Of a DNA stretch of 40,475 bases, positions 1 to 40,475 are shown piece by piece. The notes below the pieces were generated by a model. It searched no databases. It was not told the DNA's origin and worked only from the letters and a program-made list of their open reading frames with translations. Origin of the DNA: a virus (taxonomy: Duplodnaviria; Heunggongvirae; Uroviricota; Caudoviricetes); IMG/VR virus record IMGVR_UViG_2660237933_000004. One strand, written 5' to 3'. The translations under genes and the position numbers were made by a program. The first letter of the stretch is position 1, and the number at the start of each line of letters is the position of its first letter.

Positions 1-3
1 GGA

Positions 4-501
4 ATGATGCCATTTGCTCGTTATTTCTGCATTTTCATAAACGTTGGTTTGGGAGAAGGTGCTCCAACTATTGGCGTTCCGTTCTTCTGGCCCTCCGCGG
101 CAATGCCAAATACTGTAATCGACAGCTGGTCCGGTATGGTGTTTTTGAAGTTCAACGGGGCGAAATTTTCTGCCTCTGATTACCCTGTGCTGGCGAAAGT
201 GTTTCCTTCGCTGGTATTACCTGAAGCCCGCGGTGATTTCATTCGTATCTGGGATGACGGGCGAGGTGCAGATGGTGGTCGCGAATTATTAAGCTGGCAG
301 GAAGCTACAAACTTTTCTCAGTTTGCCGGGAATATAGGCGGAGGTGCGGGACACGCAATTAGCTTTCATGATGGCATCGCCGGAAATCAGCCAGGATTTT
401 CACGATTTAATTTCACCAGTAACTCTGTGGGTGATGGTGTGAATTTTGTTGCTGTCAGACCGCGAAATATTGCATTTAACTTTCTGGTGAGGGCTAAATA
501 A
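4..501 (+). CDS. Alternative tail-fibre C-terminal variable domain (Sv'-like), silent orientation; 5' part is the crossover site
   Basis: ORF running out of the left crossover site; encodes GLGEGA at the site exactly as the expressed fibre does at the right site; followed by its own tail-fibre assembly gene. Confidence 0.5.
   Translation: MMPFARYFCIFINVGLGEGAPTIGVPFFWPSAAMPNTVIDSWSGMVFLKFNGAKFSASDYPVLAKVFPSLVLPEARGDFIRIWDDGRGADGGRELLSWQEATNFSQFAGNIGGGAGHAISFHDGIAGNQPGFSRFNFTSNSVGDGVNFVAVRPRNIAFNFLVRAK
32..57. repeat. DNA-invertase crossover site, left (hix/gix-like)
   Basis: TTTTCATAAACGTTGGTTTGGGAGAA has the AAAC-nn-GGTTT core of Hin/Gin/Cin/Pin sites; an inverted copy lies at 1778-1803 (21 of 26 identical, distal 12 bp identical). 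Confidence 0.55.
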
Positions 502-1094
502 TGAAACCTGTTTTTGATGAAAATGGGCTGGCTACAGTGCCGGGCGATATGCGTTGTTTTTATTATGATGCTGAAACATCTGAGTATACGGGCTGGTCTG
601 ATGAATATATTAATACTGGCGTAAGTATGCCCGCCTGTTCAACTGGTATTGACCCGGGCGAAAACATTCTGGGAAGAGTGGCAGTATTTACAGGTAAGGG
701 ATGGAGCCATGAGGAAGACCATCGCAATGAGACTGTTTACTCAATCGAAAATGGTGCAGCTGTTACAGTGGATTATATCGGTGCCATCAAAGACGGTTAT
801 GTCACGCTTTCACCGTTAACGCCATACGATAAATGGGATGGTGAGAAATGGGTGACAGACACTGAGGCACAACACAGTGCCGCAGTAGACGCGGCAGAAG
901 CACAGCGCCAGTCACTGATTGATGCAGCAATGGCTTCCATTAGTCTGATTCAGCTGAAATTACAGGCCGGACGGAAACTGACTCAGGCAGAAACAACCCG
1001 ACTTAACGCCGTGCTGGATTACATTGACGCGGTGACGGCAACAGATACCAGCACCGCGCCGGATGTCATCTGGCCTGAACTGCCGGAGGCGTAG
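501..1094 (+). CDS. Tail fibre assembly protein (Tfa', alternative orientation)
   Basis: C-terminal motif DTSTAPDVIWPELPE typical of Tfa chaperones; convergent with the second tfa gene as in Mu G / P1 C segments. Confidence 0.7.
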   Translation: MKPVFDENGLATVPGDMRCFYYDAETSEYTGWSDEYINTGVSMPACSTGIDPGENILGRVAVFTGKGWSHEEDHRNETVYSIENGAAVTVDYIGAIKDGYVTLSPLTPYDKWDGEKWVTDTEAQHSAAVDAAEAQRQSLIDAAMASISLIQLKLQAGRKLTQAETTRLNAVLDYIDAVTATDTSTAPDVIWPELPEA

Positions 1095-1494
1095 GCCATT
1101 CAATATCGGGTGCTGTTGACGTATCAACACGCATCAGCAGCACACGGTATTTCTTCCATTGGGTGAGAGTTGTAGCTTCTTCATCAGTTGCGATATCAGC
1201 ATCAACAGCATCCTGACGCCAGGATATTTCACTGTCAGCTTTTTCCCGTAATTGGGATTTTTTAACTTCAGCAATAGCTATTAATTCCTTTTTGGTCGGC
1301 TGAGGAATATCTATCATTGCTGGTTTTCCATTCAGTGTTCCAATCTGTTTTCCTGGTGGAATATCCATAAATAACTTTTTATGTTCTTCCTCACTGACTA
1401 TTACACCATCATCAGGCCACAGACCTGATGCCTCAAATTTTTCTTTCTCCGATATGGGGAAAAAGCCATTTGCTTTAGCGCTCCATACGTACAT
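1066..1494 (-). CDS. Tail fibre assembly protein (Tfa)
   Basis: 142 aa; C-terminal KKYRVLLMRVDTSTAPDIEWPTPP motif; directly downstream of the tail fibre gene. Confidence 0.75.
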   Translation of the reverse strand: MYVWSAKANGFFPISEKEKFEASGLWPDDGVIVSEEEHKKLFMDIPPGKQIGTLNGKPAMIDIPQPTKKELIAIAEVKKSQLREKADSEISWRQDAVDADIATDEEATTLTQWKKYRVLLMRVDTSTAPDIEWPTPPAVQAR

Positions 1495-1495
1495 A

Positions 1496-2080
1496 TCAAT
1501 ACCCCACCGCTATAATGTCCACATTAAATCCCCCGGGACCTGCCTGCCAGATGCTGGCCCCTGTTAATGATTTTGTTTGATGAACAACCGCCACATTTGC
1601 TGGCGATTGTGTTTCAGTTGTTACAGTACCGATATCATTCCAGTTAATTGAGATGGAATAGTTCGTTGTTGTAAACGACCGGGGGAAAGTTATGTGTCTT
1701 ACATTGGTGCCAACAGGAAATCCAAGATAAACACGCTGAATTATCATTCCTCCAGGTAACATAACCCAGTTAGCACCTTCTCCCAAACCAAGGTTTTCGA
1801 GAGCCGTTTTCACCGTGCCATCCGATTTGATATCACCAAACGGATTCTTGCGGCTTAACAGCAGCGCACGAAGCGCGGTAAGCAACTGGTCGTGCCGCTC
1901 CTTCTCCAGGCTGGCACCGGAGGCCTCCACCACGCTGCAGAGTTCTTCCTGCAACATGTCAAAGTAGTCATCATCCAGATCGGTGGCAGGCGTGCCTGTC
2001 TGGGGGTTACCACGGGTAAAACCGTTCTTACCCGCGCCGAACTTATCCTTCTGCGCGGTTTTCGTGTCTATACGATGCAT
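1496..2080 (-). CDS. Tail fibre protein (constant N-terminus plus currently expressed variable C-terminus)
   Basis: 194 aa; its N-terminal sequence looked like a conserved tail-fibre N-terminus from memory; right crossover site lies inside the gene at the GLGEGA codons. Confidence 0.7.
1778..1803. repeat. DNA-invertase crossover site, right (hix/gix-like)
   Basis: TTCTCCCAAACCAAGGTTTTCGAGAG; reverse complement CTCTCGAAAACCTTGGTTTGGGAGAA closely resembles hix (CAAAAACC TT GGTTTT) and matches the left site. Confidence 0.55.
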
Positions 2081-2083
2081 GGA

Positions 2084-2668
2084 TTACTCCGGATATTTAA
2101 AAATTACGTAGGTATGCGACGGGCAGAGTTTGTTAAGCACACATTCGACGACGGTGTCGCCCCAGACACGCAGCGCGGAATCACAGGGATCGCCACATGT
2201 CATCCAGGTGGTGTTGGTGGCGGCTGGCATGTTGACCTGCCAGTAATACCGCCATTCCGGCGCATTCACCGCGTCAGTACAGGCAGATGAGCAGGTGAAA
2301 GTGCTTTTATCGTATCGCGTGATGGTGGCATCTGGTCTGCCCAGGGCAGCAAGCTGTGCAAGGTAAAAATCCTCATTGATGCCGCCCGCCAGATTAACCT
2401 TCGCATCCAGCCGTTGCTGACGCTGGCGAAGGGTCTGCGTTCCCGCCGGAATACATTCATCCGGCAGGCCGCACAGACGCTCCCAGCGGTTTATCAGTTC
2501 AGTGGTGGTGCGCGGATCCAGCTCCCGCATCAGGGCATCCGCACGCTGATGAACGCGGGTTAATGACGGTGCCGCACCGGCAATCGCCGGATCGCTGGCT
2601 GACCACGCCGGACCGGGGGGCAACAGTGCCGACAACAGACGGATGTAATCATCGTTTGTCACGTCCAT
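2084..2668 (-). CDS. Tail/baseplate protein (Mu gp48-like)
   Basis: 194 aa ORF between baseplate J-like gene and tail fibre; position and size as in Mu-like tail modules. Confidence 0.45.
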
Positions 2669-3717
2669 GAAATCGTCCCCAGTACCGCCAGTTCATTTTT
2701 TGCAATGGAGATATTGTCTGCCGGTGCAAGCAACTGATGGCTGTATTCCCCGTTCGCACCGGAAATCGCTTCACTGATACGCGACACCTTCAGTTCTCCC
2801 TGCGGATAACCATCACGCAGCAGGAACGAACGCAACTCGGCGGTGATGGCAGCCCGTATTTCTGGTGTATCCGGCGTCACACGGATATGAAAATCCACCG
2901 TATGCGCCACCGGCCTGAACACATACAAATCAGAGCCTGCCACCGGGGCCAGTGGCTCGATATGCAGCCTTGCCGCCGTTTCCGTTGATTCTTCCGGAAT
3001 GGGATTAATCAGGTCGCTGCTGGCAATCATCACACCGACAGTCCCCGTTCCCATCCAGTGTCGGTATGTCCATGCGCGGGTAATGCCGGGAACTTCTTTA
3101 GCCCAGACGACATAGTCCCCGTCAGCCCCGCCCTGAGGCGTCCAGTAATACCGCTCAATGACGCGGGCGCGCCACGTTTCCAGCTCTTCAGTATCAAATC
3201 CACCTGTCAGTGTATCTGCCACGCCGGAAGACGGCAGACCATTCACCGGCGTGACCAGGATTAATGACGTACCGTCGTCAGCGTTACCGACCGCGCCTGC
3301 ACTTGAGCAGGCGATCGGCACGCGCAGGACACCACCGGAGCTGGTTGCATCGGCAGTTGCCGTGTACTGCACCAGGTCATCGCGCTGAATAACACTCCCG
3401 GCGGTCACCTTCAGGCCATCGCTGACACCTTCCCAGCGCATATACCCGCTGGCAGCCGTGGCCCCCTTGCGCGGACATCGTTTCATCGCAGCATGTCGCG
3501 CCAGCCAGGACTCATCGCACAAGTCAGGCAGCATGTTCATTGCCAGATAATCGATGTACCCGTAAACCGTATGCAGCGCCGCCGCATACACCTTTGCCCG
3601 CACGTCTTCATCCATGCGCCGGAGCGTGTCGCTGACGTCCAGCCAGGCGAATAAATCGTTACGGAGCATACTGATATTTTCTGCCAGCGTCGGGCGCTGA
3701 AATTCACTGTCCGCCAT
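2659..3717 (-). CDS. Baseplate J-like protein (Mu gp47-like)
   Basis: 352 aa; position in contractile-tail baseplate cluster; size typical of the baseplate J family. Confidence 0.6.
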
Positions 3718-4132
3718 GCGTTATCGCACTCCACAGATCATCAAAAGAAATCATTACCGGTCCGTCACGACGCCAGAGAGTGATACTGTTACCCAGTTCA
3801 TTAATCCCGGTGCGGCGGATATCCAGATCAATACGGGACACCACGCCATCATCAATCATCCATTGCAGGCATTCGCGGATATACCCCCTTACCGTCTGCA
3901 CCAGCTGATTGGTCAGTTTGCTGCGCTGAAGCAGCCACAGTCGGGAGCCGTAACGGTCATTCTGTACCGCAGGCCAGGTATCCCCCCACCATCCCATCGG
4001 GACGCCGGCGTTGTCATCAGGCTCCGCCCGCCGCCAGGTAAACAGGGAAATCACCACGGCGCGGGTCAGCGGATCCAGCGGTGCGCTGGCGCAGGTGCGT
4101 TTACCGTTCACCGTCAGCCACAGTTCCATCAT
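3704..4132 (-). CDS. Baseplate protein (GpW/gp25/Mu gp46-like)
   Basis: 142 aa ORF in baseplate cluster, overlapping its neighbours. Confidence 0.5.
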   Translation of the reverse strand: MMELWLTVNGKRTCASAPLDPLTRAVVISLFTWRRAEPDDNAGVPMGWWGDTWPAVQNDRYGSRLWLLQRSKLTNQLVQTVRGYIRECLQWMIDDGVVSRIDLDIRRTGINELGNSITLWRRDGPVMISFDDLWSAITHGGQ

Positions 4133-4677
4133 GCCTCCATCGCTTTATCAGGTTTGTCGGTGTTACTGCCCTGACCGTTCTCTCTGTGACGATGCCCGTT
4201 ATAGGCAAGCCGCATCGCTGACATGGTGGTGCCGCTGGAGTCGCACAGGTCTTTCACCTGTCCTGTCACTTCCAGGTCCATTTCAAAACGTGCCTTAGGC
4301 GCATTGCGAAACGTGATCGTTTTACCTGCACCGTCCACCACGATCCCCTCCCGGGTCAGCGTCACGGACTGCCCCTGATCGTCATAGACAGCCACCTCCC
4401 CAGTCTGCAGCCCTTTCAGGCGGTAGCGACGGTCCGACACCGTAACAACCACCGCATGAGAACGGTCTCCATCCGGAAACAACACCACCGCTTCCGCACC
4501 GCTGTTTGCCCTTGCGGTAAAACCGTAGGGTTCAAGATGTTCAACCCCGGCTTTGGGTTCACCGGCAATCAGGGACACATCCACGGTCTGACATTTCGTG
4601 GCGGCACTGATGCTTTTCACCACGGCACGCCCAATCAGGCCGAGGAGTTGTCGCTGCATGGCTTCAATCGTCCTCAT
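4129..4677 (-). CDS. Baseplate assembly/spike protein (gpV/Mu gp45-like)
   Basis: 182 aa; position between gpP-like and gpW-like genes. Confidence 0.5.
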   Translation of the reverse strand: MRTIEAMQRQLLGLIGRAVVKSISAATKCQTVDVSLIAGEPKAGVEHLEPYGFTARANSGAEAVVLFPDGDRSHAVVVTVSDRRYRLKGLQTGEVAVYDDQGQSVTLTREGIVVDGAGKTITFRNAPKARFEMDLEVTGQVKDLCDSSGTTMSAMRLAYNGHRHRENGQGSNTDKPDKAMEA

Positions 4678-5756
4678 CAGAACGGGTCCTCCTGTACTCT
4701 GGCTTTTTTCTTTTTCCGCGCGCCGGGGGCTTCGGGTTCAGGCAGATAAGCATCAGGCGGGCCGACACGGATTTCCGTCAGGGTGCCGTTCTGGTCCTGA
4801 GTAAACGTGACTTCCGAAACAAGCAGTTCGGTATTGTCGAAACCACAGACCGGATCAAAGACAATCACCCGCTGGTTGGGCTGCCACAGCGTACCGTTAC
4901 CCTGTCGCCAGCCCTGCACCACATAGGTGGTTTCATCCGTCCGCGCCGCCCGTTGTCGGGCTTCAAAGTCCGCACGGGCAATACAGCCTGCCCCCGTAGC
5001 CTGCCCTGTCTGCCTGATATACATCGGACGGTAACGGGCAATAAATGCGTCCTCTGTGCGGGCCCGCAGCGCGGTGGTGGTGGCCTCACCGAAATCATCG
5101 TCGTTTCCGGCACGCTGCCCCGCCACCTGGTAAACTGAAAACCGCTCCCGGATACTCTTCTCCGTATCACAGGAAAGGATGTTTTCCCCAAGTACCAGCG
5201 CGGTATGTGCCCGCGTTGAGCCAATACCACCAATCACCAGCCTGCCGTGCGGGTCGTCATAAGCCAGCGCCTGCTGCTGACCGAGTATTTTGTTGATCAC
5301 CTCGATCACCGTTTCACCGTGATCAGGCTGGACATCCGGAATAACACCCGACGGCGCATCGCTGTTCACCACCTCAATGCCGAAAGGCGCAGCAAGCGCC
5401 TGCGCAATCTGTACCAGCGATCGTCCGTTAAACTGTGTCGGTTCGGCTGCACAGTCAATCAGGTCAGCAGTCAGACTACGTCCGGCAATACCGGTGCTGA
5501 CCGAACGGGCATCGTAACGAACGGGGGTCGCCTCCACCCAGCCGGTGATCACCAGCTCATCACCAATCAGCACTTCCACTTTTGAACCATTTTTAATGCG
5601 CGGCTGAAGCGTGGTGATACCCTCATCTCCCGGCCACTGGCGGGTGATCTCCACGCTGAAATCCCGCGCCAGCCGTTCAATACCGGCACCGATGCGCACC
5701 GATGTCCAGCCATTCCACTCCCGGCCATTTACCCGTAGCGTGACGTTATCGTTCAT
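4677..5756 (-). CDS. Tail protein (Mu gpP / late control D-like)
   Basis: 359 aa; position downstream of the DNA circularization-like gene in a Mu-type tail module. Confidence 0.5.
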   Translation of the reverse strand: MNDNVTLRVNGREWNGWTSVRIGAGIERLARDFSVEITRQWPGDEGITTLQPRIKNGSKVEVLIGDELVITGWVEATPVRYDARSVSTGIAGRSLTADLIDCAAEPTQFNGRSLVQIAQALAAPFGIEVVNSDAPSGVIPDVQPDHGETVIEVINKILGQQQALAYDDPHGRLVIGGIGSTRAHTALVLGENILSCDTEKSIRERFSVYQVAGQRAGNDDDFGEATTTALRARTEDAFIARYRPMYIRQTGQATGAGCIARADFEARQRAARTDETTYVVQGWRQGNGTLWQPNQRVIVFDPVCGFDNTELLVSEVTFTQDQNGTLTEIRVGPPDAYLPEPEAPGARKKKKARVQEDPF

Positions 5757-7087
5757 TGCACTGGCACCTTCAGAGGGATCACCGGCACAAAGCCGGGATG
5801 CGTAATGGCATTACGCCGGATAATGTCCGCGTCACGCGCCGCGTTATCAAACCAGGTCGCCGCCAGCACCAGCGCGGGTAAGACCTCATCCGGCGTGCGC
5901 CGAATGATCCGTGCAGACTGTTCAAGGCGCGTGTTGATATCCGCATTCAGATCTGCTTTCACCCGGCGCAGTGCCAGAAACAGCGCATCACTGGTTGTAC
6001 GGGACAACTCCTTATCAATTGCCGTATTCAGTGTGTCGCGAATGTCAGTCAGCTCTTCCCACGTTGGCAGGTCAACCGTGTTTTTCACCGCCGGTGCATT
6101 GTTCAGTGCCGGATGCGTGACAGAAGGCCAGCCAGTGCTCTGCGCGGGTGTTGTTGCCTGCCCCACTGCGGAATTCTGCATCACCTCGGAAGTTGTTGGC
6201 GCAGGCAATCGGGTGACGGCATACGCCGCTTCGCTGATTGCGGTCGTACGAAGGGTGCTGGCAACCACGTTACGCTGCTGCGTCGCCGTGGCGGTGGTTT
6301 TACTGTCCGTTTTCCAGACGCCGCGCGGTTGCAGATCGCTGCCGAGGCTGACACCGGAAAGCGTTTTGATCATGGTGACCAGGTCGCTGGCGTTACCATA
6401 AAGGCGTTTCCCGGTACGCCACATTTTCTGCACCTGCTCAACGAAATTTTTGCCTGACGATGGCGGCGGCAGAAGTACCGAGATATCCCCCTGCAACAGC
6501 CTGGCGGCATCCGATACGGCAGAATCCACCACTTTCATCGCATCAGAAACATACCCCAGCATTATGCTGGCATTATCGATAACGTCGTTCTGCACGAAAT
6601 CCGCCACACCATCGATACTGAAACCGCTGAAGCTGTCACTGATGCAGTCATCCAGTGCAGAACAGGATGACATCAGCGTCTGCGCCGTCGCCGCACCTGA
6701 TGTGGGGTAAGAGAGTTCTCCTGCTTCGACAAACTTCAGGTCAAAGCGGACAATACGCCCTTCACTTTTCGATGTGCTGACCCGAACTTCCCCGTCAACA
6801 CAGACTTTCAGCTCACCATATGTCGGGTGGACAAGCGTGCCGGGACCGGGTTTATTCAGCGCTTCAATCAGGCGATCGCGCTGGTCAAAGCAGTCATCTC
6901 CCACCACATAAGCTGTGATGGACGGGCGGAAAGTGACTTTTCCCAGATCTTCGGTATAGGGCTTGTCGCGGTTCGGGTATTCATGTGTTTCCACACGGCG
7001 ACCGGTTCCCGCACTTTCTTCTTCAACCTTAAACGGCACACCTCGAAATGACGCATCCTGAAGCCTGTCTTTCCACGTCATATACAC
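5753..7087 (-). CDS. Tail protein (Mu gpN DNA circularization protein-like)
   Basis: 444 aa; N-terminal region looked Mu N-like from memory; downstream of tape measure. Confidence 0.5.
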   Translation of the reverse strand: MYMTWKDRLQDASFRGVPFKVEEESAGTGRRVETHEYPNRDKPYTEDLGKVTFRPSITAYVVGDDCFDQRDRLIEALNKPGPGTLVHPTYGELKVCVDGEVRVSTSKSEGRIVRFDLKFVEAGELSYPTSGAATAQTLMSSCSALDDCISDSFSGFSIDGVADFVQNDVIDNASIMLGYVSDAMKVVDSAVSDAARLLQGDISVLLPPPSSGKNFVEQVQKMWRTGKRLYGNASDLVTMIKTLSGVSLGSDLQPRGVWKTDSKTTATATQQRNVVASTLRTTAISEAAYAVTRLPAPTTSEVMQNSAVGQATTPAQSTGWPSVTHPALNNAPAVKNTVDLPTWEELTDIRDTLNTAIDKELSRTTSDALFLALRRVKADLNADINTRLEQSARIIRRTPDEVLPALVLAATWFDNAARDADIIRRNAITHPGFVPVIPLKVPVQ

Positions 7088-7090
7088 TCC

Positions 7091-7125
7091 GAAAATAAAA
7101 AAGCCACCTATTAGAAGGTGGCCTT
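7091..7125 (-). terminator. Intrinsic terminator after the moron gene
   Basis: Minus-strand hairpin (GCCACC / GGTGGC stem, 8-nt loop) followed by TTTTTTATTTT, 20 bp after the stop of the 7143-7673 gene. Confidence 0.5.
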
Positions 7126-7142
7126 GTAATGAATTTTATTAA

Positions 7143-7673
7143 TTAGCGAGTCAGAAACAACGAATCTTTATACTTTTGCTGTTGTTCATTTAAATACTTA
7201 GCTGTTTCATCGCTGGCAAATGGAAATATTACCGTATTTTTAGGCATGGTAATTTCTTTTTTGTCCAGCGTCAGAGTAAACATAGGAACATACTGAGCAG
7301 AGTAACGCACCGCAGAAACGAGCTCTAGTTTAGACTCTTCAATAACACTTAAATTATCCAGGCTAACTTTCTCTTCATCTTTTTTCTTTGACGCATTTAA
7401 AGTTTTTATTACTTTATTTAATTTCTCCTGAAAATCCTCCTTAAAGTTTTCAGGATTGCCGTCGACAACAAGAATCTGTTCACCCTGATTATCTGGAAAA
7501 ATAATCTTTGCACTTATCAATTTATTTTCTTTATAAACATCACCAAGTTTTATGGCTCCTCCAGATAACTGAATAATATGTTCATCTTTAAAGGAGATGT
7601 TGCCAGAGATTATGAGAGATGAAAAAATAGCCGCTGCTCCAAGAATTACACTTGCTGTGATATAGCCTTTCAT
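7143..7673 (-). CDS. Hypothetical membrane-anchored moron protein
   Basis: 176 aa; N-terminal hydrophobic helix (VILGAAAIFSSLIIS) then Lys/Glu-rich soluble domain; markedly AT-rich versus flanking tail genes; own promoter-like sequence and terminator. Confidence 0.6.
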   Translation of the reverse strand: MKGYITASVILGAAAIFSSLIISGNISFKDEHIIQLSGGAIKLGDVYKENKLISAKIIFPDNQGEQILVVDGNPENFKEDFQEKLNKVIKTLNASKKKDEEKVSLDNLSVIEESKLELVSAVRYSAQYVPMFTLTLDKKEITMPKNTVIFPFASDETAKYLNEQQQKYKDSLFLTR

Positions 7674-22657: not shown

Positions 22658-23461
22658 ATGACAGAAAAAGATAACATTGGTAAGTTAATTTGGCATATTG
22701 CTTGCGATGAATCTGGCATTGATGGACAACGTTTCTACGGCTTTGGCAGTCTGTGGATGAAGTACCAACGCCGTGGGGATTTCTGTCAACTAATCAGAGA
22801 ACTACGCGGAAAACATGGTTTTTTTGAAGAAATAAAATGGCAAAAAGCCCATTCAAAAAGATACTCTGAATTTTATCTTGAGCTGATCGACTTATTCTTT
22901 AGAGTTCCTTGGCTAGCTTTTCATTGTATCGTGGTTGAAAAATCAATAGTAAATAAGGCATTTCATAATGGAGATTATGACCTGGCAAGGAGAAAGCACT
23001 TCACAAATCTCATTACCACAAAAATTAGCTCTGTAATTTCTGCACACCCTGAAAGAGACAGTTACTTCAGGATTGAAGTTGATCCTATCGCATCTCGTTA
23101 TAAAAAGGCTGATGAAGAACTAAATGTTATTGCCAATAACATATTGAATAGAAAATTTGGTCGTAAAGGGATAATCAGCAGTGTAGTGACAAAAGACTCT
23201 AAAGCATCTGAAAACATTCAGCTAGCCGATTTTTTCTTAGGTGCGGTTATGTGCGCATATCAAGGAAAAGCTTCATCTGAAGCCAAAATAAGAGTATCAA
23301 ACTATGTTGCTTCATATTTAGGCTGGGATCACTTGCAATATGATACATGGCACACTGAGAGAAAATTTAATATCTGGTATTTTTATGATAAAACTCGAGG
23401 GCCACGAGATATAGAAACTCAAAATGTTAGCTTGAAGTATCCACTTCCCAAAAAGAAATAG
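22658..23461 (+). CDS. DUF3800-like protein (function unknown), opposite-strand moron between Q and holin
   Basis: 267 aa; N-terminal DESG and C-terminal QLAD motifs as I recall for DUF3800; AT-rich; AT-rich upstream region. Confidence 0.6.
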   Translation: MTEKDNIGKLIWHIACDESGIDGQRFYGFGSLWMKYQRRGDFCQLIRELRGKHGFFEEIKWQKAHSKRYSEFYLELIDLFFRVPWLAFHCIVVEKSIVNKAFHNGDYDLARRKHFTNLITTKISSVISAHPERDSYFRIEVDPIASRYKKADEELNVIANNILNRKFGRKGIISSVVTKDSKASENIQLADFFLGAVMCAYQGKASSEAKIRVSNYVASYLGWDHLQYDTWHTERKFNIWYFYDKTRGPRDIETQNVSLKYPLPKKK

Positions 23462-26274: not shown

Positions 26275-27801
26275 TCAAAAATAAACCTCACCATCAACCA
26301 TATATTTGAGAGTACTTATCGCCTGCTGGGCGGATATTGTTTTCATTAAAGGATAGTGTTTAAAAACAATGCCATTCATAAAATAGATATCACAGGTTTT
26401 ATTATCTGTATTGATTATGATTTTTTCGAATGTTTTATAGGCAAGTGTACGACATAGCTCTCGCCCATTTTTACTGGTTAAGTCAATAGCATGAAAATCA
26501 CCAAGTGAACTCACCGCTTTACTCTTCAAAGTTTTTAATGATACAGAAGCCCTTCGTAATTCCTTATCTAATACTCTGATTTTTTCTGCTATAGCGGTAA
26601 CTTCAGGCGCAACAGATAATGCAGCAATTAAATTATTAATTTTCATCTGGAGCTCAATAATTTTCAACTCTAAAGTTTCATTAGCATCTTTCTTGTTTTC
26701 AACTGGTTGGATTTTACTACAATTAAAAAGCAACTCATTAATGATATTATAATCAACCAAATCTCTCTTTATTGATGGCCTGTCACATCGATGCAGTCTT
26801 CTCATCGGACAAACATAATAGCCATGCAAACTTCCAGATACCGCATGAACAATCATGGTATTACCACAAGCCTCGCACTTCATAACTGTTCGAAGTAGAT
26901 TTATCAACATAGGATTTTTGCTACTATTGCTAATACCAAAAGGTGCCAACCGAATTTCCTGCACAGCGTAAAACAAATCATCTGATATGACTCTGGGATA
27001 ATAGCCAGCGATTTCACTTATTCCTTTACCTCTTGCACGATATGAAGGTACGCATATACCTATCAGAGCTTTATTCGCTAATAATTTTTCAATTACAGAA
27101 GGCCCCCATGCACTTTCTTTGCCTGAGAAATTTTTTACAGCATGATCATTTAAATACTTGGCTATTGCATTCAATGATCGCCTTTCCATCCTGAGTTTAA
27201 AAATTAGCTCAATCGTTTTCACCCTGTCGGGGTCTGGAATAAAAGCTGTTCTTTTGTCATCCAATGAGAGCCATCTCGGACAAGACGCCGTCATAATCGT
27301 GCCTGACTCCAGTGCATCCTGCCGTTTTTTCTTCCATGATAATTTAACCCGACTTGACTTTATCTCGCTTTCTTCATTTGCCCTTTGTGCTATAAGTATG
27401 GCTTTTATTAATGAATATGGATCATTCAAAGAGTCAATATTATAGACTGTATTATCGCAAAGAGTTATAACATCAATACCGTGATTCAAAATCAATTTCA
27501 GACGCTCAATCGCTTCACCGACTTTTTCTCTTGAAAGTCTGTCCAAACTTTCAACTAACAATGTAGTTCCTGGCAATATATAACCATGCTCTATAGCATC
27601 TAAAAATTCCGAAAAAGCTCCTGATTGTGCATGCTTTCCTTTGAATGCACTTAATCCTAAATCTTCATATGTTATGGTATCAAGATAATAATCACTATTT
27701 ACCTTTAACCATTCAGCAATAAGTCTTCTCTGTCGGTTTAATGAGTCGCCAGACATCTGACCTGGTGATGAAAATCGCATATATGCTATGGCTTTTTTCA
27801 T
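26275..27801 (-). CDS. ybcK: Large serine recombinase (YbcK-like)
   Basis: 508 aa; N-terminal resolvase motif YMRFSSPGQ...SLNRQ, Cys-rich zinc-ribbon region (CEACG...CPMRRLHRC); AT-rich. Confidence 0.8.
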   Translation of the reverse strand: MKKAIAYMRFSSPGQMSGDSLNRQRRLIAEWLKVNSDYYLDTITYEDLGLSAFKGKHAQSGAFSEFLDAIEHGYILPGTTLLVESLDRLSREKVGEAIERLKLILNHGIDVITLCDNTVYNIDSLNDPYSLIKAILIAQRANEESEIKSSRVKLSWKKKRQDALESGTIMTASCPRWLSLDDKRTAFIPDPDRVKTIELIFKLRMERRSLNAIAKYLNDHAVKNFSGKESAWGPSVIEKLLANKALIGICVPSYRARGKGISEIAGYYPRVISDDLFYAVQEIRLAPFGISNSSKNPMLINLLRTVMKCEACGNTMIVHAVSGSLHGYYVCPMRRLHRCDRPSIKRDLVDYNIINELLFNCSKIQPVENKKDANETLELKIIELQMKINNLIAALSVAPEVTAIAEKIRVLDKELRRASVSLKTLKSKAVSSLGDFHAIDLTSKNGRELCRTLAYKTFEKIIINTDNKTCDIYFMNGIVFKHYPLMKTISAQQAISTLKYMVDGEVYF

Positions 27802-28057
27802 GGTGACACCTGCTAACGTATGCTTTTATAAACCTTAGTGGTGAGATATAATTTTTGTTTAATTTTTATTTAAAAAGACAATTAAGGTCACATTATCTTG
27901 AATATACAACAATAATCGTATTGCAATTTTCTTACGCCATAATCTTGAAAGCACAAAAGAATACATAAAAAAATAAAGACATTAACAAAAAGCATAAAAC
28001 GAGGCTCATATAAATATAAGAGCCTCCATATTTTAGTCGTTTAGAAACAAATTATTT

Positions 28058-28390
28058 TTAATGTGGTGTGCTTCGTGACAATAAATTAATAACCAACACT
28101 CCGGCACAAATCAACATCATGCCTATAATGGCTGGCATGTCCAGCCGTTGGCCGAAAAATCCCCATGACAGTAAGCTAATCAGGACAATACCGACTCCTG
28201 ACCAGATAGCATAAGCAATCCCTGTAGGAATATAAGCCAGCGTCTGCGCTAATAACCAGAATGATGCACAATAACAAATAATTGTACCAACAGATGGCCA
28301 TAACCGTGTAAAACCTTCTGAAAACTTCATTAAGGTTGTACCAATGACCTCTGCAAGTATTGCACCACCAAGATAAATATAAGGGTTCAT
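28058..28390 (-). CDS. emrE: Small multidrug resistance efflux protein EmrE
   Basis: 110 aa from MNPYIYLGGAILAEVIGTTLMKFSEGF; four TM helices; matches E. coli EmrE from memory. Confidence 0.85.
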   Translation of the reverse strand: MNPYIYLGGAILAEVIGTTLMKFSEGFTRLWPSVGTIICYCASFWLLAQTLAYIPTGIAYAIWSGVGIVLISLLSWGFFGQRLDMPAIIGMMLICAGVLVINLLSRSTPH

Positions 28391-28457
28391 AGCATATTCT
28401 TTCCTGTTCAAACTGGAGAGAATTGTACTACAGTTTGAACTCAACTCACCTGTTTCA

Positions 28458-31310: not shown

Positions 31311-31350
31311 AACAACCTCCGTGGTTAATTTGAATCAAGATTAAAACTGT

Positions 31351-31371
31351 GGTTGTTTTTAGTCAACAACC
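31351..31371. promoter_or_regulatory. Candidate OR operator palindrome
   Basis: GGTTGTT-TTTAGTC-AACAACC perfect 7-bp inverted repeat between cro and cI; the same GTTGTT/AACAAC hexamers recur at the pL region. Confidence 0.35.
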
Positions 31372-31414
31372 ATTTTCGTTTGATGGAATAAAACCTTGGT
31401 TGTACATTTGGACT

Positions 31415-32104
31415 ATGAAAACAACACTCTCAGAAAGACTTAAAGAAGCCAGATTAGCGCGAGGCCTTACACAAAAGGCGCTTGGGGATTTGGTCGGGGT
31501 TAGCCAAGCTGCTATTCAGAAAATCGAAACAGGGAAAGCTAACCAAACAACTAAAATCGTGGAGATCGCGAACGCTTTGGGTGTGCGCGCAGAATGGTTA
31601 TCTTCTGGCGTTGGAAATATGTCAGACAGTACAGTGCAACCAATACCATCAACTGTCAGCCATTCCAAATACTTTAAGATTGACGTTCTTGATATAGAAG
31701 TGAGTGCCGGGCCGGGAGTCATCAACCGTGAGTTTGTAGAAGTTCTACGCTCGGTTGAGTACTCGTTTGACGATGCTCGTCACATGTTCGATGGTAGGAA
31801 GGCAGAAAATATCCGCATCATTAACGTACGCGGTGACAGCATGTCAGGAACGATCGAACCAGGTGATCTGCTGTTCGTTGATATCACGGTTAAATCTTTC
31901 GACGGTGATGGTATCTATGCGTTTCTGTATGACGACACCGCCCATGTAAAGCGCCTGCAAATGATGAAGGATAAGCTACTGGTTATCTCTGATAACAAGA
32001 GCTACTCGCCGTGGGACCCAATTGAGAAAGACGAGATGAACCGGGTATTCATCTTCGGTAAGGTTATTGGGAGCATGCCGCAGACATACAGGAAGCATGG
32101 GTAA
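31415..32104 (+). CDS. cI: CI-type prophage repressor (HTH plus S24 LexA-like autopeptidase domain)
   Basis: 229 aa from MKTTLSERLKEARLARGLTQKALGD; C-terminal GDSMSGTIEPGDLLFVD Ser nucleophile motif and a downstream Lys. Confidence 0.85.
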   Translation: MKTTLSERLKEARLARGLTQKALGDLVGVSQAAIQKIETGKANQTTKIVEIANALGVRAEWLSSGVGNMSDSTVQPIPSTVSHSKYFKIDVLDIEVSAGPGVINREFVEVLRSVEYSFDDARHMFDGRKAENIRIINVRGDSMSGTIEPGDLLFVDITVKSFDGDGIYAFLYDDTAHVKRLQMMKDKLLVISDNKSYSPWDPIEKDEMNRVFIFGKVIGSMPQTYRKHG

Positions 32105-32183
32105 CTACCGAATCGAATACTATAACTACGTAAAAAGACTATACATATCAACATTTTTTCTTTGATACATAGATGGAATAGCA

Positions 32184-33029
32184 ATGAAGCTTAACTTTTA
32201 TGCCGTATACATTCAAAATACTAGCTCTCTGAAAAAACAACCTATAGATTTATTGTCATTTCTGACAGAGCAGGTAATAAACGCTAAGAATCATGCTCAG
32301 CAGATTGAAGACTACTATGTTTTTGCACATCATATAATTAATGATAGTTTTATCCTGACAAAAACATTTGATTCAGAACTAGTTAAAAAAATCAATAGAA
32401 AAACACTTTCGGTTGATGAAATAAGAAATGCGCTTAGTTCAGATGAGTCATTAGGATTCCCATCATTTTTATTAATAAGAAAAAATATTATCGGATATGC
32501 AAATACATTATTCGGCCCAAAAACTCGTGATCTTGCAGCTTACCTAAAAGGAAAGGGAGCAATACCTGATGGATACTCACTATTCATAGAACCTTTGATG
32601 AGAGATATAACAAAGGATGATGCTTTAAGCATGCAGTTTATAGGAAGAACAACGGTAAGGGTTGAAAATGGGTCAAAACTTCTCAGCCCCCTACTTAGAG
32701 TGCTTGGTGCACAAGCAGTTGACGAAGAGCTCTTAGAAGGACTGGAAATAACCGTGAAGCCTAAACGTTTACGAAATATAAAATCTGTTGCCAAAGGGAT
32801 TATTAGCAATGTGGATGAACAACATGAGAGCATTCACCTGAAGGGTAAAGAACAAGCTGCAGATATTCTTACAGAATATTATCTTTCTGACAAAGGCCAC
32901 ATTGGAGCAAATATCTATAAATCATCGAATGAAGACATAGCATCCGAAATGTCAACTTGCTATCTCAGGATGAAATTGATTATAATGGAAAGTTATAATA
33001 GAACATTTGGAGATGAGTTACCACTATAA
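32184..33029 (+). CDS. rexA: RexA-like abortive-infection protein
   Basis: 281 aa directly downstream of cI; conserved segments ESLGFPSF, IEPLMR..TKDD, FIGRTTVRVE, ILTEYYLSDKGH match lambda RexA from memory; AT-rich. Confidence 0.7.
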   Translation: MKLNFYAVYIQNTSSLKKQPIDLLSFLTEQVINAKNHAQQIEDYYVFAHHIINDSFILTKTFDSELVKKINRKTLSVDEIRNALSSDESLGFPSFLLIRKNIIGYANTLFGPKTRDLAAYLKGKGAIPDGYSLFIEPLMRDITKDDALSMQFIGRTTVRVENGSKLLSPLLRVLGAQAVDEELLEGLEITVKPKRLRNIKSVAKGIISNVDEQHESIHLKGKEQAADILTEYYLSDKGHIGANIYKSSNEDIASEMSTCYLRMKLIIMESYNRTFGDELPL

Positions 33030-33031
33030 TA

Positions 33032-33487
33032 TTGGGGGGCTATATGAAGTCACGGCACAGGATAGCGCCAGCAATAATACTTTTTCTTTTGCCATTCCCA
33101 ATTATTATAAGTGCGTATTATCTAATCCGCCACATGTTTCCGGGTATGGCTTTTAGCGAGCACAGAGATGCGCTGGGTGGCGCTATTGCCGCTTATTCTG
33201 GTACTACAATTGCGATACTTATAGCCGCTTTAACATTTCTGATGGGGCTGGGAGGCAGGAATATTCGCAAATTGAAAACATATGGCTATATGACATCAAT
33301 CATAATCATGTATGGATTAACTTTTTGCGAGCTAGGAGTACTTTTCTTTAATGGCTTGTTTTTACTTGCAACAAGTAAAAATCCTATACTAATGCTACCA
33401 TCAATCGCTATTGGTTTATCAGGTACGTCACTAATCCATATTGGCATGCTCCTGATGCAATTACTTAATCTGTCAAAACATAAGTAA
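33032..33487 (+). CDS. rexB: RexB-like membrane protein
   Basis: 151 aa, four hydrophobic helices; FSEHRDALG...TIAILIAALTFL...YGYMTS closely matches lambda RexB from memory. Confidence 0.7.
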   Translation: MGGYMKSRHRIAPAIILFLLPFPIIISAYYLIRHMFPGMAFSEHRDALGGAIAAYSGTTIAILIAALTFLMGLGGRNIRKLKTYGYMTSIIIMYGLTFCELGVLFFNGLFLLATSKNPILMLPSIAIGLSGTSLIHIGMLLMQLLNLSKHK

Positions 33488-37655: not shown

Positions 37656-37977
37656 GGCCTGTCAGTTTCTCAAGATATCCAGACCTACCGCTACCAACTG
37701 GATACGAACAGGCCGCCTACAGGCAACACGCAAAGACCCCACTAAACTAAAATCTCCTTACCTCACAACACGACAAGCCTGCATTGCGGCGCTTCAGTCT
37801 CCGCTGCATACTGTCCAGGTGAGCGCGGGTGATGGCATAACAGAGGAAAGAAAATGTCACTCTTCCGCAGAGGTGAAATATGGTACGCCAGTTTCACATT
37901 GCCGAACGGTAAAAGATTTAAACAGTCTCTTGGAACAAAGGACAAAAGGCAGGCGACAGAGCTCCATGACAAGCTAA
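37627..37977 (+). CDS. xis: Excisionase (P22-type)
   Basis: 116 aa from [31 protein letters not shown] (AlpA/Xis-type HTH); immediately upstream of and overlapping int. Confidence 0.7.
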
Positions 37978-39017
37978 AGGCTGAAGCATGGCGGGTCAGC
38001 AAACTTGGTGAAATACCTGATATGACGTTCGAGGAGGCGTGTATCAGGTGGCTCGAAGAGAAAGCACATAAAAAATCACTGGACGATGACAAAAGCCGGA
38101 TCGGATTCTGGCTTCAACATTTCGCAGGGATGCAACTAAGAGACATCACTGAATCAAAAATTTATTCAGCAATGCAGAAAATGACGAACCGGCGTCATGA
38201 GGAAAACTGGAAACTCAGGGCAGAAGCATGCAGAAAAAAAGGGAAACCTGTTCCAGAATACACGCCAAAACCAGCGTCCGTTGCAACGAAGGCTACGCAT
38301 CTTTCATTTATAAAGGCCCTGCTAAGAGCCGCAGAGCGTGAATGGAAAATGCTGGATAAGGCACCAATTATTAAAGTGCCTCAACCAAAGAATAAACGGA
38401 TCCGCTGGCTGGAGCCCCATGAAGCACAAAGGCTGATTGATGAATGTCCGGAGCCATTAAAGTCTGTTGTTGAATTTGCACTGGCAACAGGCTTAAGACG
38501 CTCGAACATCATCAACCTTGAATGGCAACAAATAGATATGCAGCGCCGGGTGGCATGGATAAACCCGGAAGAGAGTAAATCAAACCGCGCAATTGGCGTT
38601 GCGCTGAATGATACTGCATGTCGCGTATTGAAAAAACAAATCGGGAATCATCACCGTTGGGTATTTGTGTACAAGGAAAGCTGTACCAAACCAGACGGAA
38701 CGAAAGCGCCAACAGTAAGGAAGATGCGGTATGACGCAAACACAGCCTGGAAAGCGGCGCTGAGACGGGCTGGTATTGATGATTTCAGATTTCACGACTT
38801 GAGACACACCTGGGCAAGTTGGCTGGTTCAAGCCGGAGTCCCGTTGTCAGTGTTACAGGAAATGGGAGGCTGGGAGTCTATCGAAATGGTTCGTCGATAT
38901 GCTCACCTTGCACCTAATCACCTTACCGAACACGCACGGCAAATAGACTCGATCCTGAACCCATCGGTCCCAAATTTGTCCCAGTCAAAAAATAAGGAAG
39001 GTACTAATGATGTGTAA
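37854..39017 (+). CDS. int: Tyrosine integrase (P22/SfV-type, thrW-specific)
   Basis: 387 aa; N-terminus [31 protein letters not shown] and catalytic region [10 protein letters not shown]...VRRYAHL; ends 14 bp from the tRNA-Thr 3' end. Confidence 0.9.
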
Positions 39018-39031
39018 CTTATTGATTTAAA

Positions 39032-39107
39032 TGGTGCCGATAATAGGAGTCGAACCTACGACCTTCGCATTACGAATGCGCTGCTCTACCAACTGAGCTA
39101 TATCGGC
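39032..39107 (-). tRNA. thrW: tRNA-Thr (anticodon CGU), thrW-type
   Basis: Minus-strand 76 nt GCCGATATAGCTCAGTTGGTAGAGCAGCGCATTCGTAATGCGAAGGTCGTAGGTTCGACTCCTATTATCGGCACCA; cloverleaf with CGT anticodon; 3' CCA. Confidence 0.9.
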
Positions 39108-39221: not shown

Positions 39222-40475
39222 TTACGCACGAATGGTGTAATCACCAATGCCGATCCACTTGTAAGTGGTCAGTGCTTCCAGCCCCATTGGGCCACGCGCG
39301 TGGAGTTTTTGTGTGCTTACCGCCACTTCCGCACCCAGTCCAAACTGGCCGCCGTCGGTAAAACGCGTAGAGGCGTTAACGTAAACAGCGGACGAATCCA
39401 CTTCGTTAACAAAACGCTGGGCGTTGCGCATATCGCGGGTCAGGATCGCATCGGAGTGTTGTGTGCCGTGTTCACGAATATGGGCGATGGCATCGTCAAG
39501 ATCGCTGACGATTTTGACGTTCAAATCTAATGACAGAAACTCATCGTCATACTCTTCGGCTTTAACCGCCACCACCTTCGCGGGGCCTGCCTGCAACTGT
39601 GTCAGCGCAGCTGCATCTGCGTGTAATGTCACGCCGCTTTCCGCCATTTGTTTGCTTAATACGGGCAGGAAGCTATCGGCGATGTTTTTATTCACCAGCA
39701 ACGTTTCTACCGTATTACATGTGCTCGGACGCTGGGTTTTCGCGTTGACGATCACTTTTAATGCTTCAGCAATCTCTGCACTTTCATCAACGTAAATATG
39801 GCATACGCCTATACCACCAGTGATCACCGGGATCGTCGACTGTTCGCGGCACAGTTTATGCAAACCAGCCCCACCGCGCGGGATCAGCATGTCGATGTAT
39901 TTATCCATACGCAGCATTTCACTGACCAGCGCACGGTCAGGATTATCAATCGCCTGCACGGCACCCGCCGGTAAGCCACAGGATTTCAGGGCGTCCTGAA
40001 TCACCGCCACCGTTGCAGCGTTAGTGCGACAGGTTTCTTTGCCACCACGCAGGATCACCGCATTACCGGTTTTCAGGCACAGCGAAGCGACATCAACCGT
40101 CACGTTCGGGCGCGCTTCATAAATCACGCCAATCACCCCCAGCGGCACGCGACGACGCTCAAGACGCAGGCCGCTGTCCAGCACGCCGCCATCAATCACC
40201 TGCCCCACCGGATCGGCGAGGTTACACACCTGGCGCACATCATCGGCAATGCCTTTCAACCGTGCGGGCGTCAGTGCCAGACGGTCAAGCATCGCTTCGC
40301 TAAGGCCATTGGCACGCGCGTCAGCAACATCCTGGGCGTTAGCGTTGAGGATGATTTCGCTTTGTGCTTCCAGTTCATCGGCGATTTTTTCCAGCACGCG
40401 ATTTTTTTCGCGGCTGGAGAGTTGCGCTAATTTATACGAGGCTTGCTTCGCGGCAATGCCCATTTGTTCCAGCAT
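39222..40475 (-). CDS. proA: Gamma-glutamyl phosphate reductase ProA
   Basis: 417 aa, full-length match to E. coli ProA; start codon at the last base of the window. Confidence 0.95.

What the first reader, a model, noticed from the sequence alone, without database searches (positions are those of the whole stretch)
1..2080. Invertible tail-fibre host-range switch with both hix/gix-like crossover sites in view
Two 26-bp sites (32-57 and 1778-1803) are inverted copies of each other (21 of 26 identical) and resemble Hin/Gin crossover sites. Between them lie a tail-fibre C-terminus plus tfa on the minus strand and a second fibre C-terminus plus tfa on the plus strand, arranged convergently as in Mu G and P1 C segments. 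Both sites sit inside coding sequence and both encode GLGEGA, so inversion would swap the fibre C-terminal domain in frame. The invertase gene is not in the window; I predict a serine invertase of roughly 190 aa just left of position 1.
Basis: partly seen in the sequence, partly recalled or inferred. Interest (0 to 1): 0.6.

Follow-up and report, generated by a model that had tools for sequence, protein, structure and literature searches.

The report
Pin-type invertible phage tail-fibre switch

Summary
Window 1778-1803 and the reverse complement of 32-57 are each 26/26 identical to the published Pin crossover sites pixL and pixR of the E. coli K-12 e14 prophage. They are the only such sites in the 40 kb. 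They bracket two convergent cassettes, each a fibre C-terminus plus a Caudo_TAP chaperone. In-silico inversion fuses the constant 96-residue N-terminus in frame to the other C-terminus, changing the fibre from 194 aa to 248 aa.

Near-identical prophages occur in both orientations in complete E. coli genomes: 8 as here and 18 inverted. One strain pair differs only by inversion of 39-1796. Short-read assemblies often place 44-1791 on its own contig.

Position 1 is a contig end, so the invertase cannot be read in this assembly. In all 14 relatives inspected, a Pin gene or its 5' remnant starts 24-26 nt left of position 1 and points away from the segment. It is intact in 8 of them (183-187 aa; Resolvase and HTH_7 domains on record for three). 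The cassettes differ from those of K-12 e14.

Verdict: already known; low interest.

The parts
32..57 (.). Crossover site, identical to pixR when read on the - strand (TTCTCCCAAACC AA CGTTTATGAAAA). The central dinucleotide is at 44-45.
   Evidence: Identical to e14 L005 6606-6631 and to pixR in PMC3241671 Table 3.
1778..1803 (.). Crossover site, identical to pixL (TTCTCCCAAACC AA GGTTTTCGAGAG). The central dinucleotide is at 1790-1791.
   Evidence: Identical to e14 L005 4779-4804 and to pixL in PMC3241671 Table 3.
44..1791 (.). Invertible segment of 1748 nt, including the 20-nt perfect inverted-repeat arms 44-63 and 1772-1791.
   Evidence: L001 versus L004: the flanks are 99.96-99.98% identical and 39-1796 is inverted. 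L008 and L009 are inverted relative to the window. Stand-alone contigs of 1748 nt equal 44-1791 exactly.
1792..2080 (-). Constant N-terminal part of the tail fibre (about 96 codons), outside the segment. It is 96% identical in DNA to e14 ycfK/stfP.
1496..1771 (-). Variable fibre C-terminus currently joined to the constant part (Gp53-like_C domain). The full fibre is 194 aa (1496-2080).
   Evidence: Pfam PF21882, 25 bits against a cut-off of 24.9. Translation.
1066..1494 (-). Tail-fibre assembly chaperone of 142 aa, cognate to the currently expressed tip.
   Evidence: Pfam Caudo_TAP, E = 5e-33. 33% identical to e14 TfaP.
64..501 (+). Silent alternative fibre C-terminus. After inversion it gives a 248-aa fibre.
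   Evidence: In-frame fusion. Weak Collar match, below Pfam's cut-off. The 248-aa fibre is annotated in the inverted relatives L003, L004, L008 and L009.
501..1094 (+). Silent alternative tail-fibre assembly chaperone of 197 aa. It overlaps the other tfa tail-to-tail by 29 nt (1066-1094).
   Evidence: Pfam Caudo_TAP, E = 4e-27. 65% identical to e14 TfaE.
4..45 (+). Short leader with its own ATG (positions 4 and 7) that reads through pixR into whichever cassette lies next to pin. It corresponds to the start of e14 stfE.
   Evidence: ORF 4-501. 44% identical to e14 stfE. PGAP calls a 111-aa gp53-like ORF from this ATG in inverted relatives.
1..31 (.). Spacer between pixR and the invertase start codon. 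Position 1 is the end of the source contig. In relatives the pin ATG lies 24-26 nt further left, on the - strand.
   Evidence: L010 equals window 1-7094 and starts at contig position 1. L002 sequence.
2084..2668 (-). Context: YmfQ / Mu gp48-like baseplate wedge protein immediately upstream of the fibre gene in the late operon.
   Evidence: Pfam Phage_Mu_Gp48, E = 1e-26. 98% identical to e14 YmfQ.

Best explanation
Window 44-1791 is a Pin-type (Din-family: Hin/Gin/Cin/Pin) invertible segment. It is the P segment of an e14/SfV-like temperate myovirus integrated at thrW next to proA.

How it works. The late operon is read on the minus strand. It runs through the baseplate genes into a fibre gene whose first ~96 codons (2080-1792) lie outside the segment. 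The pixL site (1778-1803) sits in the coding sequence at the motif GLGEGA. In the present orientation the constant part continues into a Gp53-like C-terminal tip (194 aa in all), followed by its 142-aa chaperone.

A small serine invertase (Pin) is encoded just left of position 1 and transcribed away from the segment. Pin would pair pixL with pixR (32-57), cut at the central AA/TT dinucleotide and rotate the strands. That flips 1.75 kb. The constant part then continues in frame into the other tip (248 aa in all), followed by the 197-aa chaperone. The segment carries no promoter-like site, so only the cassette joined to the constant part is expressed with the late genes. Progeny phage therefore carry one of two receptor-binding tips.

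Shown here: the sites, their identity to pixL and pixR, the in-frame swap, natural isolates in both orientations with breakpoints in the repeat, and the invertase position in relatives.

Inferred: that Pin is present and active in this particular strain, the need for Fis and an enhancer, and that the two tips recognise different receptors.
For: - Site identity. Both sites are 26/26 identical to published pixL and pixR and to K-12 e14. They are the only two such sites in 40 kb, with 0 expected by chance.
- In-frame swap from 194 aa to 248 aa. Both cassettes pair a fibre tip with a Caudo_TAP chaperone.
- Same prophage, opposite orientation. Strains B1S11 and EC_J_9 carry the same prophage at the same locus. 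Their flanks are 99.96-99.98% identical and 39-1796 is inverted. L008 has flanks 100% identical to the window, an inverted segment and an intact 184-aa Resolvase+HTH_7 gene.
- Complete E. coli genomes. Eight carry the window's arrangement and 18 the in-silico inverted one, each full length in one piece.
- Assembly signature. Contigs of 1748 nt equal 44-1791 exactly in 16 samples, including a 100% identical one from the sister assembly GCA_000785775.1. That is the unitig expected when both orientations are present in the reads.
- Invertase. Pin from L002 is 176/184 identical to K-12 PinE and 144/184 identical to Mu Gin.
- No sigma-70-like promoter in 1-2800, against 3.2 expected.
- Experiments on the same sites in e14. 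Both orientations coexist in cultures (PMC4272514). PinE, PinQ and PinR invert the segment at TTGGTTTGGGAGAAGG, which is window 44-59 (PMC12529663).
- The isolated phage SKA5 has the same layout with an annotated DNA invertase.
Against: - The invertase gene is not in the window, and the source contig ends at position 1. Its presence in this genome is therefore unverified.
- In 6 of 10 complete E. coli relatives inspected only a 123-237-nt 5' remnant of pin is left. The switch could be locked here unless a paralogous Pin acts in trans.
- No read-level data for this strain were available.
- The window's own contig reads through both sites without a break.
- The Fis-dependent enhancer could not be confirmed (inconclusive).
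- The Pfam matches of the two tips are weak: Gp53-like_C is just at its cut-off and Collar is below it. Their receptors are unknown.
Confidence: 0.93

Rival explanations
1. Frozen relic. The architecture is a Pin-type switch, but in this genome the adjacent invertase is truncated or absent. The segment is then locked in the present orientation (Gp53-like tip) unless a Pin paralogue from another prophage acts in trans.
For: Six of 10 complete E. coli relatives carry only a 5' remnant of the recombinase. The window's contig runs through both sites in one orientation.
Against: The closest relatives all have an intact 184-aa invertase: L007 (99.87% identical over 7 kb), L008 (flanks 100% identical) and L009. 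The sister assembly splits off 44-1791 as a separate, 100% identical contig, which suggests mixed orientations in that culture. A contig break 24 nt from the pin start fits a multicopy pin gene lying there (inference). Strains with a truncated pin still occur in both orientations, and trans-acting PinQ/PinR are documented (PMC12529663).
Confidence: 0.2
2. No recombination. The two 26-mers are alike only because two paralogous fibre genes on opposite strands both encode the conserved peptide GLGEGA.
For: The best-conserved part of the repeat (46-63 and 1772-1789) is exactly the GLGEGA coding stretch.
Against: The sites are identical at every base to experimentally defined pixL and pixR, including the outer half-sites. 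Those outer half-sites encode unrelated residues (FINV versus ALENL) yet keep the TTxTCnnAAAC half-site pattern. Natural isolates differ by a clean inversion with breakpoints inside the repeat.
Confidence: 0.01
3. The inversion is catalysed by the serine recombinase encoded inside the window (26275-27801, 508 aa), not by an unseen Pin.
For: It has a Resolvase catalytic domain and is the only serine recombinase in the window.
Against: It is a large serine recombinase (Resolvase + Recombinase + Zn_ribbon_recom) of the YbcK type. It is common cargo next to emrE in the nin region of lambdoid phages that have no invertible segment. It shows no tblastn similarity to Pin or Gin. K-12 e14 inverts identical sites with PinE.
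Confidence: 0.01

Closest known systems
P segment / PinE system of the E. coli K-12 cryptic prophage e14 (Plasterk & van de Putte 1985, EMBO J 4:237, cited; GenBank X01805)
   Same: The pixL and pixR sites are identical, 26/26 each. The gene order is the same: ymfQ, fibre (constant part, then pixL), tfa, then tfa', fibre' and pixR on the opposite strand, then pin. The constant region and ymfQ are 96% identical in DNA. The two tfa genes overlap tail-to-tail by 29 nt in both. Pin in relatives is 176/184 identical to PinE.
   Different: The cassettes are different alleles. The fibre is 56% identical overall to StfP, and the variable parts showed no DNA match at E <= 1e-5. Tfa142 is 33% identical to TfaP, Tfa197 is 65% identical to TfaE, and the silent tip is 44% identical to stfE. 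The segment is 1748 nt against 1797 bp. The host element here is an apparently complete SfV/SfII-like prophage at thrW-proA rather than the 15-kb cryptic e14 at icd.
G segment / Gin of phage Mu
   Same: There are two 26-bp sites in inverted orientation inside the fibre gene. The fibre has a constant N-terminus outside the segment. Two convergent tip-plus-chaperone cassettes lie inside it. The invertase is adjacent and transcribed away from the segment. Gin is 144/184 identical to the relatives' Pin. Baseplate genes gp44-gp48 are homologous.
   Different: The gix sites match the window sites at only 17-18 of 26 positions, and the core is GA rather than AA. The G segment is 3 kb. The Mu fibre is much longer (504 aa), with a constant part of about 170 codons. 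No blastp match was found between the fibre tips.
C segment / Cin of phage P1, and the Min multiple-inversion region of plasmid p15B
   Same: The same Din family of sites, with an AA core. The half-site TTCTC(T/C)(T/C)AAACC of cix and mix is very close to the window's TTCTCCCAAACC. The function is fibre-tip switching (established knowledge).
   Different: Min has six sites and many cassettes. The window has only two sites. The cassettes were not compared directly.
Escherichia phage SKA5 (OR670062.1) and Shigella phages SfII/SfI/SfIV/SfV
   Same: The structural module is about 97% identical over roughly 17-20 kb. SKA5 has the same layout of invertase, silent tip, tfa, tfa and fibre.
   Different: In SfIV an IS element replaces the distal cassette and the invertase. 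SfV, SfI and SfII match only from the constant part onwards, from position 1770-1777.

Membership tests
Din-family (Hin/Gin/Cin/Pin) site-specific DNA inversion system | Two 26-bp crossover sites in inverted orientation. Each is an imperfect palindrome of 12-bp half-sites around a 2-bp core, and the cores are identical in the recombining alignment. | tested here: met
   [quoted passage not shown] The chance expectation is 0.00.
Din-family (Hin/Gin/Cin/Pin) site-specific DNA inversion system | A small serine invertase (about 180-195 aa; Resolvase catalytic domain plus C-terminal HTH_7) encoded next to one site. | tested here: inconclusive
   It is absent from the window, and the contig ends at position 1. 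In all 14 relatives inspected, pin or its 5' remnant starts 24-26 nt left of position 1. It is intact (183-187 aa) in 8 of them, and PF00239 + PF02796 are on record for the three copies.
Din-family (Hin/Gin/Cin/Pin) site-specific DNA inversion system | A Fis-dependent recombinational enhancer in cis, inside the 5' part of the invertase gene. | tested here: inconclusive
   It lies outside the window. A scan of relatives' pin, K-12 pinE and Mu gin found one conserved Fis-consensus 15-mer centred at nt 78 in all four genes. No clean pair 48 bp apart was found.
Din-family (Hin/Gin/Cin/Pin) site-specific DNA inversion system | The segment is actually found in both orientations, with breakpoints in the sites. 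| tested here: met
   L001 versus L004. L008 and L009 versus the window. Eight complete genomes as the window against 18 inverted. Not tested on reads of this strain.
e14-type P segment (Pin) | pixL and pixR sequences. | tested here: met
   26/26 identity for both sites to K-12 e14 and to the published table.
e14-type P segment (Pin) | A short fibre with a constant N-terminus homologous to StfP/YcfK, preceded by ymfQ. The segment holds two tip-plus-Tfa cassettes. | tested here: met
   96% DNA identity over 1770-3000 to e14. YmfQ is 98% identical. Both chaperones match Caudo_TAP.
Phage tail-fibre host-range switch (functional claim) | The two orientations give virions with different receptor specificity. 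| not testable with these tools
   Inferred from the Mu and P1 precedent (established knowledge) and from the unrelated C-terminal domains.

The most novel reading that the evidence does not exclude
The switch may do double duty. A short ORF starts at its own ATG (window 4 or 7) next to pin and reads through pixR into whichever tip is not joined to the fibre N-terminus. In the present orientation it encodes a 165-aa Collar-like protein. After inversion it would encode a 111-aa Gp53-like protein. In K-12 e14 the analogous chimera, StfE2, was reported to block adsorption of phage T2 (PMC12529663). Here an intact prophage could toggle both its virion host range and a receptor-masking defence protein for the lysogen. 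Pin paralogues from other prophages might drive the toggle.
Probability: 0.12. Interest if true: 0.45.

Novelty: already known. Interest (0 to 1): 0.1.

Why it matters
It matters little beyond correct annotation.

- **Known biology.** It confirms that a complete SfV/e14-like prophage at thrW carries a textbook Pin inversion switch with a particular pair of receptor-binding cassettes.
- **Assembly.** Assemblies of such strains tend to break at this locus. The window starts at such a break, and the segment is often a stand-alone contig of about 1.7 kb.
- **Annotation.** The alternative 248-aa fibre is mislabelled 'integrase' in RefSeq.
- **Host range.** Host-range predictions for this phage should consider both tips.

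Tried and rejected
- **Fis enhancer.** I scanned pin of L007 and L002, K-12 pinE and Mu gin for two Fis sites 48 bp apart. One conserved consensus site was found and no clean pair, so the result is inconclusive.
- **Promoters.** A sigma-70 scan around the pin-pixR junction and across the segment found none. That fits a promoterless segment, but it does not locate the pin promoter or a promoter for the 4-501 ORF.
- **Closest complete genome.** I tried to fetch the annotation of CP057262. It is not in the E. coli collection.
- **Provenance.** A search for the assembly accession JRQA00000000 in papers gave no hit.
- **Original papers.** Plasterk & van de Putte 1985 (PMC554175) and Mehta et al. 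2004 (PMC331406) are not held. They are cited only through other papers' reference lists.
- **Large serine recombinase at 26275-27801.** I considered it as the invertase and rejected it.
- **Extra crossover sites.** I looked for additional sites that would indicate a Min-like multiple-inversion system. There are none in the window.
- **Not used.** The large protein searches and structure prediction were not run, because the DNA-level identities settle the question.
Full report
**1. The observation**

- Window 32-57 reads TTTTCATAAACGTTGGTTTGGGAGAA. Window 1778-1803 reads TTCTCCCAAACCAAGGTTTTCGAGAG.
- The reverse complement of the second site matches the first at 21 of 26 positions.
- An unbiased repeat search ranks this pair first among inverted repeats in the first 4 kb: 39-63 against 1772-1796, 25 nt at 96%. 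The perfect arms are 44-63 and 1772-1791.
- A Din-type consensus with up to three mismatches finds these two sites and nothing else in 40,475 bases. The expectation from 100 dinucleotide-preserving shuffles is 0.00.
  - On the minus strand lie a 194-aa fibre (1496-2080) and a 142-aa chaperone (1066-1494).
  - On the plus strand lie an ORF at 4-501 that reads through the left site, and a 197-aa chaperone (501-1094).
- Both chaperones are strong Caudo_TAP matches. The current fibre tip matches Gp53-like_C just at Pfam's cut-off. The silent tip has a Collar match below the cut-off.
- GLGEGA is encoded at 46-63 (+) and at 1789-1772 (-).

**2. What it is**

- Both 26-mers are identical, base for base, to the two sites that flank the P segment of the E. 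coli K-12 cryptic prophage e14. One lies in ycfK/stfP and the other in stfE next to pinE.
- They are also identical to pixL (TTCTCCCAAACC AA GGTTTTCGAGAG) and pixR (TTCTCCCAAACC AA CGTTTATGAAAA) as tabulated for the Din family in PMC3241671 Table 3.
- The Mu gix sites were located at the annotated G-segment boundaries. They match the window sites at 17-18 of 26 positions.
- Gene order is the same as in e14: ymfQ, fibre, tfa, then tfa', fibre' and pinE.
- The constant region plus ymfQ and the baseplate J remnant are 96% identical in DNA to e14.
- The cassettes are different alleles:

| Window protein | e14 counterpart | Identity |
|---|---|---|
| Fibre, 194 aa | StfP | 56% overall |
| Tfa, 142 aa | TfaP | 33% |
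| Tfa, 197 aa | TfaE | 65% |
| Silent tip ORF, 165 aa | stfE | 44% |

**3. The in-frame swap**

- I modelled exchange at the central dinucleotides (44/45 and 1790/1791). The constant 96 codons at 2080-1792 then run in frame into GLGEGA-PTIGVPFFWPS..., giving a 248-aa fibre followed directly by the 197-aa chaperone.
- Exactly this 747-nt gene followed by the 594-nt tfa is annotated in relatives that carry the opposite orientation.

**4. Evidence that inversion really happens**

- *Same prophage, opposite orientation.* Strains B1S11 (L001) and EC_J_9 (L004) carry the same prophage at the same chromosomal place and share protein accessions. Their flanks are 99.96-99.98% identical. The stretch equivalent to window 39-1796 is inverted, so the breakpoints fall inside the 25-nt repeat.
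- *Closest relative.* L008 has flanks 100% identical to the window over 5.5 kb, an inverted segment with 3 mismatches, and an intact invertase.
- *Complete genomes.* Eight complete E. coli genomes hold the window's arrangement full length in one piece. Eighteen hold the in-silico inverted arrangement.
- *Stand-alone contigs.* In short-read assemblies that encode the identical 197-aa Tfa, the segment is often a separate contig. Contigs of 1748 nt equal window 44-1791 exactly, in 12 + 2 + 2 samples. Contigs of 1706 nt equal 65-1770.
  - A unitig bounded exactly by the outer ends of a 20-nt inverted repeat is what a de Bruijn graph gives when reads from both orientations are present (inference).
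  - A repeat shorter than the k-mer would not break the graph on its own. Sharing the flanks with another prophage would leave k-1 bases of flank on the contig.
  - One such contig, from the sister assembly GCA_000785775.1, is 100% identical to the window.
- *Published experiments on the same sites in e14.*
  - Both orientations coexist in clonal cultures, by paired-end mapping and PCR (PMC4272514).
  - PinE, PinQ and PinR invert the segment at TTGGTTTGGGAGAAGG / CCTTCTCCCAAACCAA, which are window 44-59 and 1776-1791 (PMC12529663).

**5. The invertase**

- tblastn with PinE, a relative's Pin and Mu Gin finds nothing in the window.
- The window is the first 40,475 nt of contig JRQA01000047.1 (60,576 nt, GCA_000785795.1). 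L010 is identical to window 1-7094 and starts at contig position 1. What lies to the left therefore cannot be read in this assembly.
- In every relative inspected, a recombinase gene or its 5' remnant starts 24-26 nt left of the equivalent of position 1, on the minus strand, and so points away from the segment.
  - It is intact (183-187 aa) in L002, L007, L008, L009, L020, L021, L024 and phage SKA5. Resolvase and HTH_7 are on record for L007, L008 and L009.
  - It is reduced to 123-237 nt in L001, L003, L004, L019, L022 and L023.
- The L002 protein is 176/184 identical to K-12 PinE and 144/184 identical to Mu Gin. It keeps the N-terminal YxRVSTxDQ motif; that this motif holds the catalytic serine rests on established knowledge.
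I put about 0.8 on an intact pin in this strain, because the three closest relatives have one.

**6. Mechanism**

- This is standard Din-family inversion, as set out under best explanation.
- The segment has no sigma-70-like site (0 found, 3.2 expected). That fits expression by read-through from the late operon, so only the cassette fused to the constant part is made.
- Dependence on Fis and an enhancer is assumed from the family. My scan for the enhancer in pin was inconclusive.

**7. Context**

- The window holds proA (39222-40475), tRNA-Thr(CGT) at 39032-39107 and a tyrosine integrase at 37854-39017.
- Next comes a lambdoid early region: a CI-like repressor, RexA/RexB, RecT/YqaJ, Dam, O/P, NinB, RusA and Q.
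- This is followed by lysis genes and a morphogenesis module about 97% identical to Shigella phages SfII, SfI, SfIV and SfV.
- Unlike K-12 e14, the prophage looks complete, so the switch could affect real virions.
- The 508-aa serine recombinase at 26275-27801 is a YbcK-type large serine recombinase next to emrE. This pair is common nin-region cargo in lambdoid phages and is unrelated to the inversion.

**8. Verdict**

- Observation: confirmed.
- Interpretation: supported.
- Novelty: already known. This is a Pin/e14-type P segment with a known alternative pair of cassettes, and near-identical copies occur in many sequenced genomes.
- Interest: low.
- The only mildly open point is whether the pin-proximal ORF, the analogue of stfE/StfE2, has a function of its own in an intact prophage.

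Noticed in passing
window 1 (left end): Position 1 is the end of the source contig JRQA01000047.1. It lies 63 nt before the inner edge of the pixR repeat arm. In sister and other assemblies the segment 44-1791 is a stand-alone contig. The locus is an assembly breakpoint, either because pin is multicopy or because both orientations are present.
   Followed up: partly
window 26275-28444: A 508-aa large serine recombinase (Resolvase + Recombinase + Zn_ribbon_recom, YbcK-like) lies next to an SMR/EmrE-type transporter, between replication gene P and ninB. The same pair is found at about 95% identity in many lambdoid phages.
   Followed up: partly
window 31349-33487: A CI-like repressor (HTH_3 + Peptidase_S24) is followed by RexA and RexB homologues. 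This is a lambda-type immunity and exclusion cassette in a phage with a Mu/SfV-like tail.
   Followed up: no
window 22658-23461 (+): A DUF3800 ORF sits on the strand opposite to its neighbours, between the antiterminator Q gene and the lysis genes. It looks like a moron.
   Followed up: no
window 1066-1094: The two tfa genes overlap tail-to-tail by 29 nt. Both strands encode the conserved C-terminal ...TSTAPD..WP..P motif. K-12 e14 tfaP/tfaE show the same 29-nt overlap.
   Followed up: partly
L003 3844-4590; L022, L023 and L024 2834-3580: RefSeq/PGAP names the 248-aa alternative tail fibre (for example WP_136697486.1) 'integrase'. It is the fibre constant part fused to the other tip, so this is a misannotation.
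   Followed up: no
L001, L003, L004, L019, L022, L023 (left of the segment): In 6 of 10 complete E. coli relatives pin is cut down to its first 123-237 nt, with different cargo beyond it (DUF262 protein, DinI-like). Both orientations still occur among these strains. This points to inversion before the loss of pin, or to trans-acting Pin paralogues.
   Followed up: partly
window 34-41 onward (hits H31-H36 and H44-H49): Similarity to the fibre genes of unrelated phages (500465-2, vB_EcoM-606R2, siphoviruses mEp213 and mEp043) starts right inside the pixR site and runs through the tip and into the tfa gene. The crossover/GLGEGA region thus also marks a boundary of horizontal exchange of fibre tips.
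   Followed up: no
window 7143-7673 (-): A 176-aa ORF between the tape-measure and DNA-circulation genes has no Pfam match. In relatives the corresponding gene is annotated as a PH-domain (bPH) protein, and in L001 it is disrupted by IS1.
   Followed up: no
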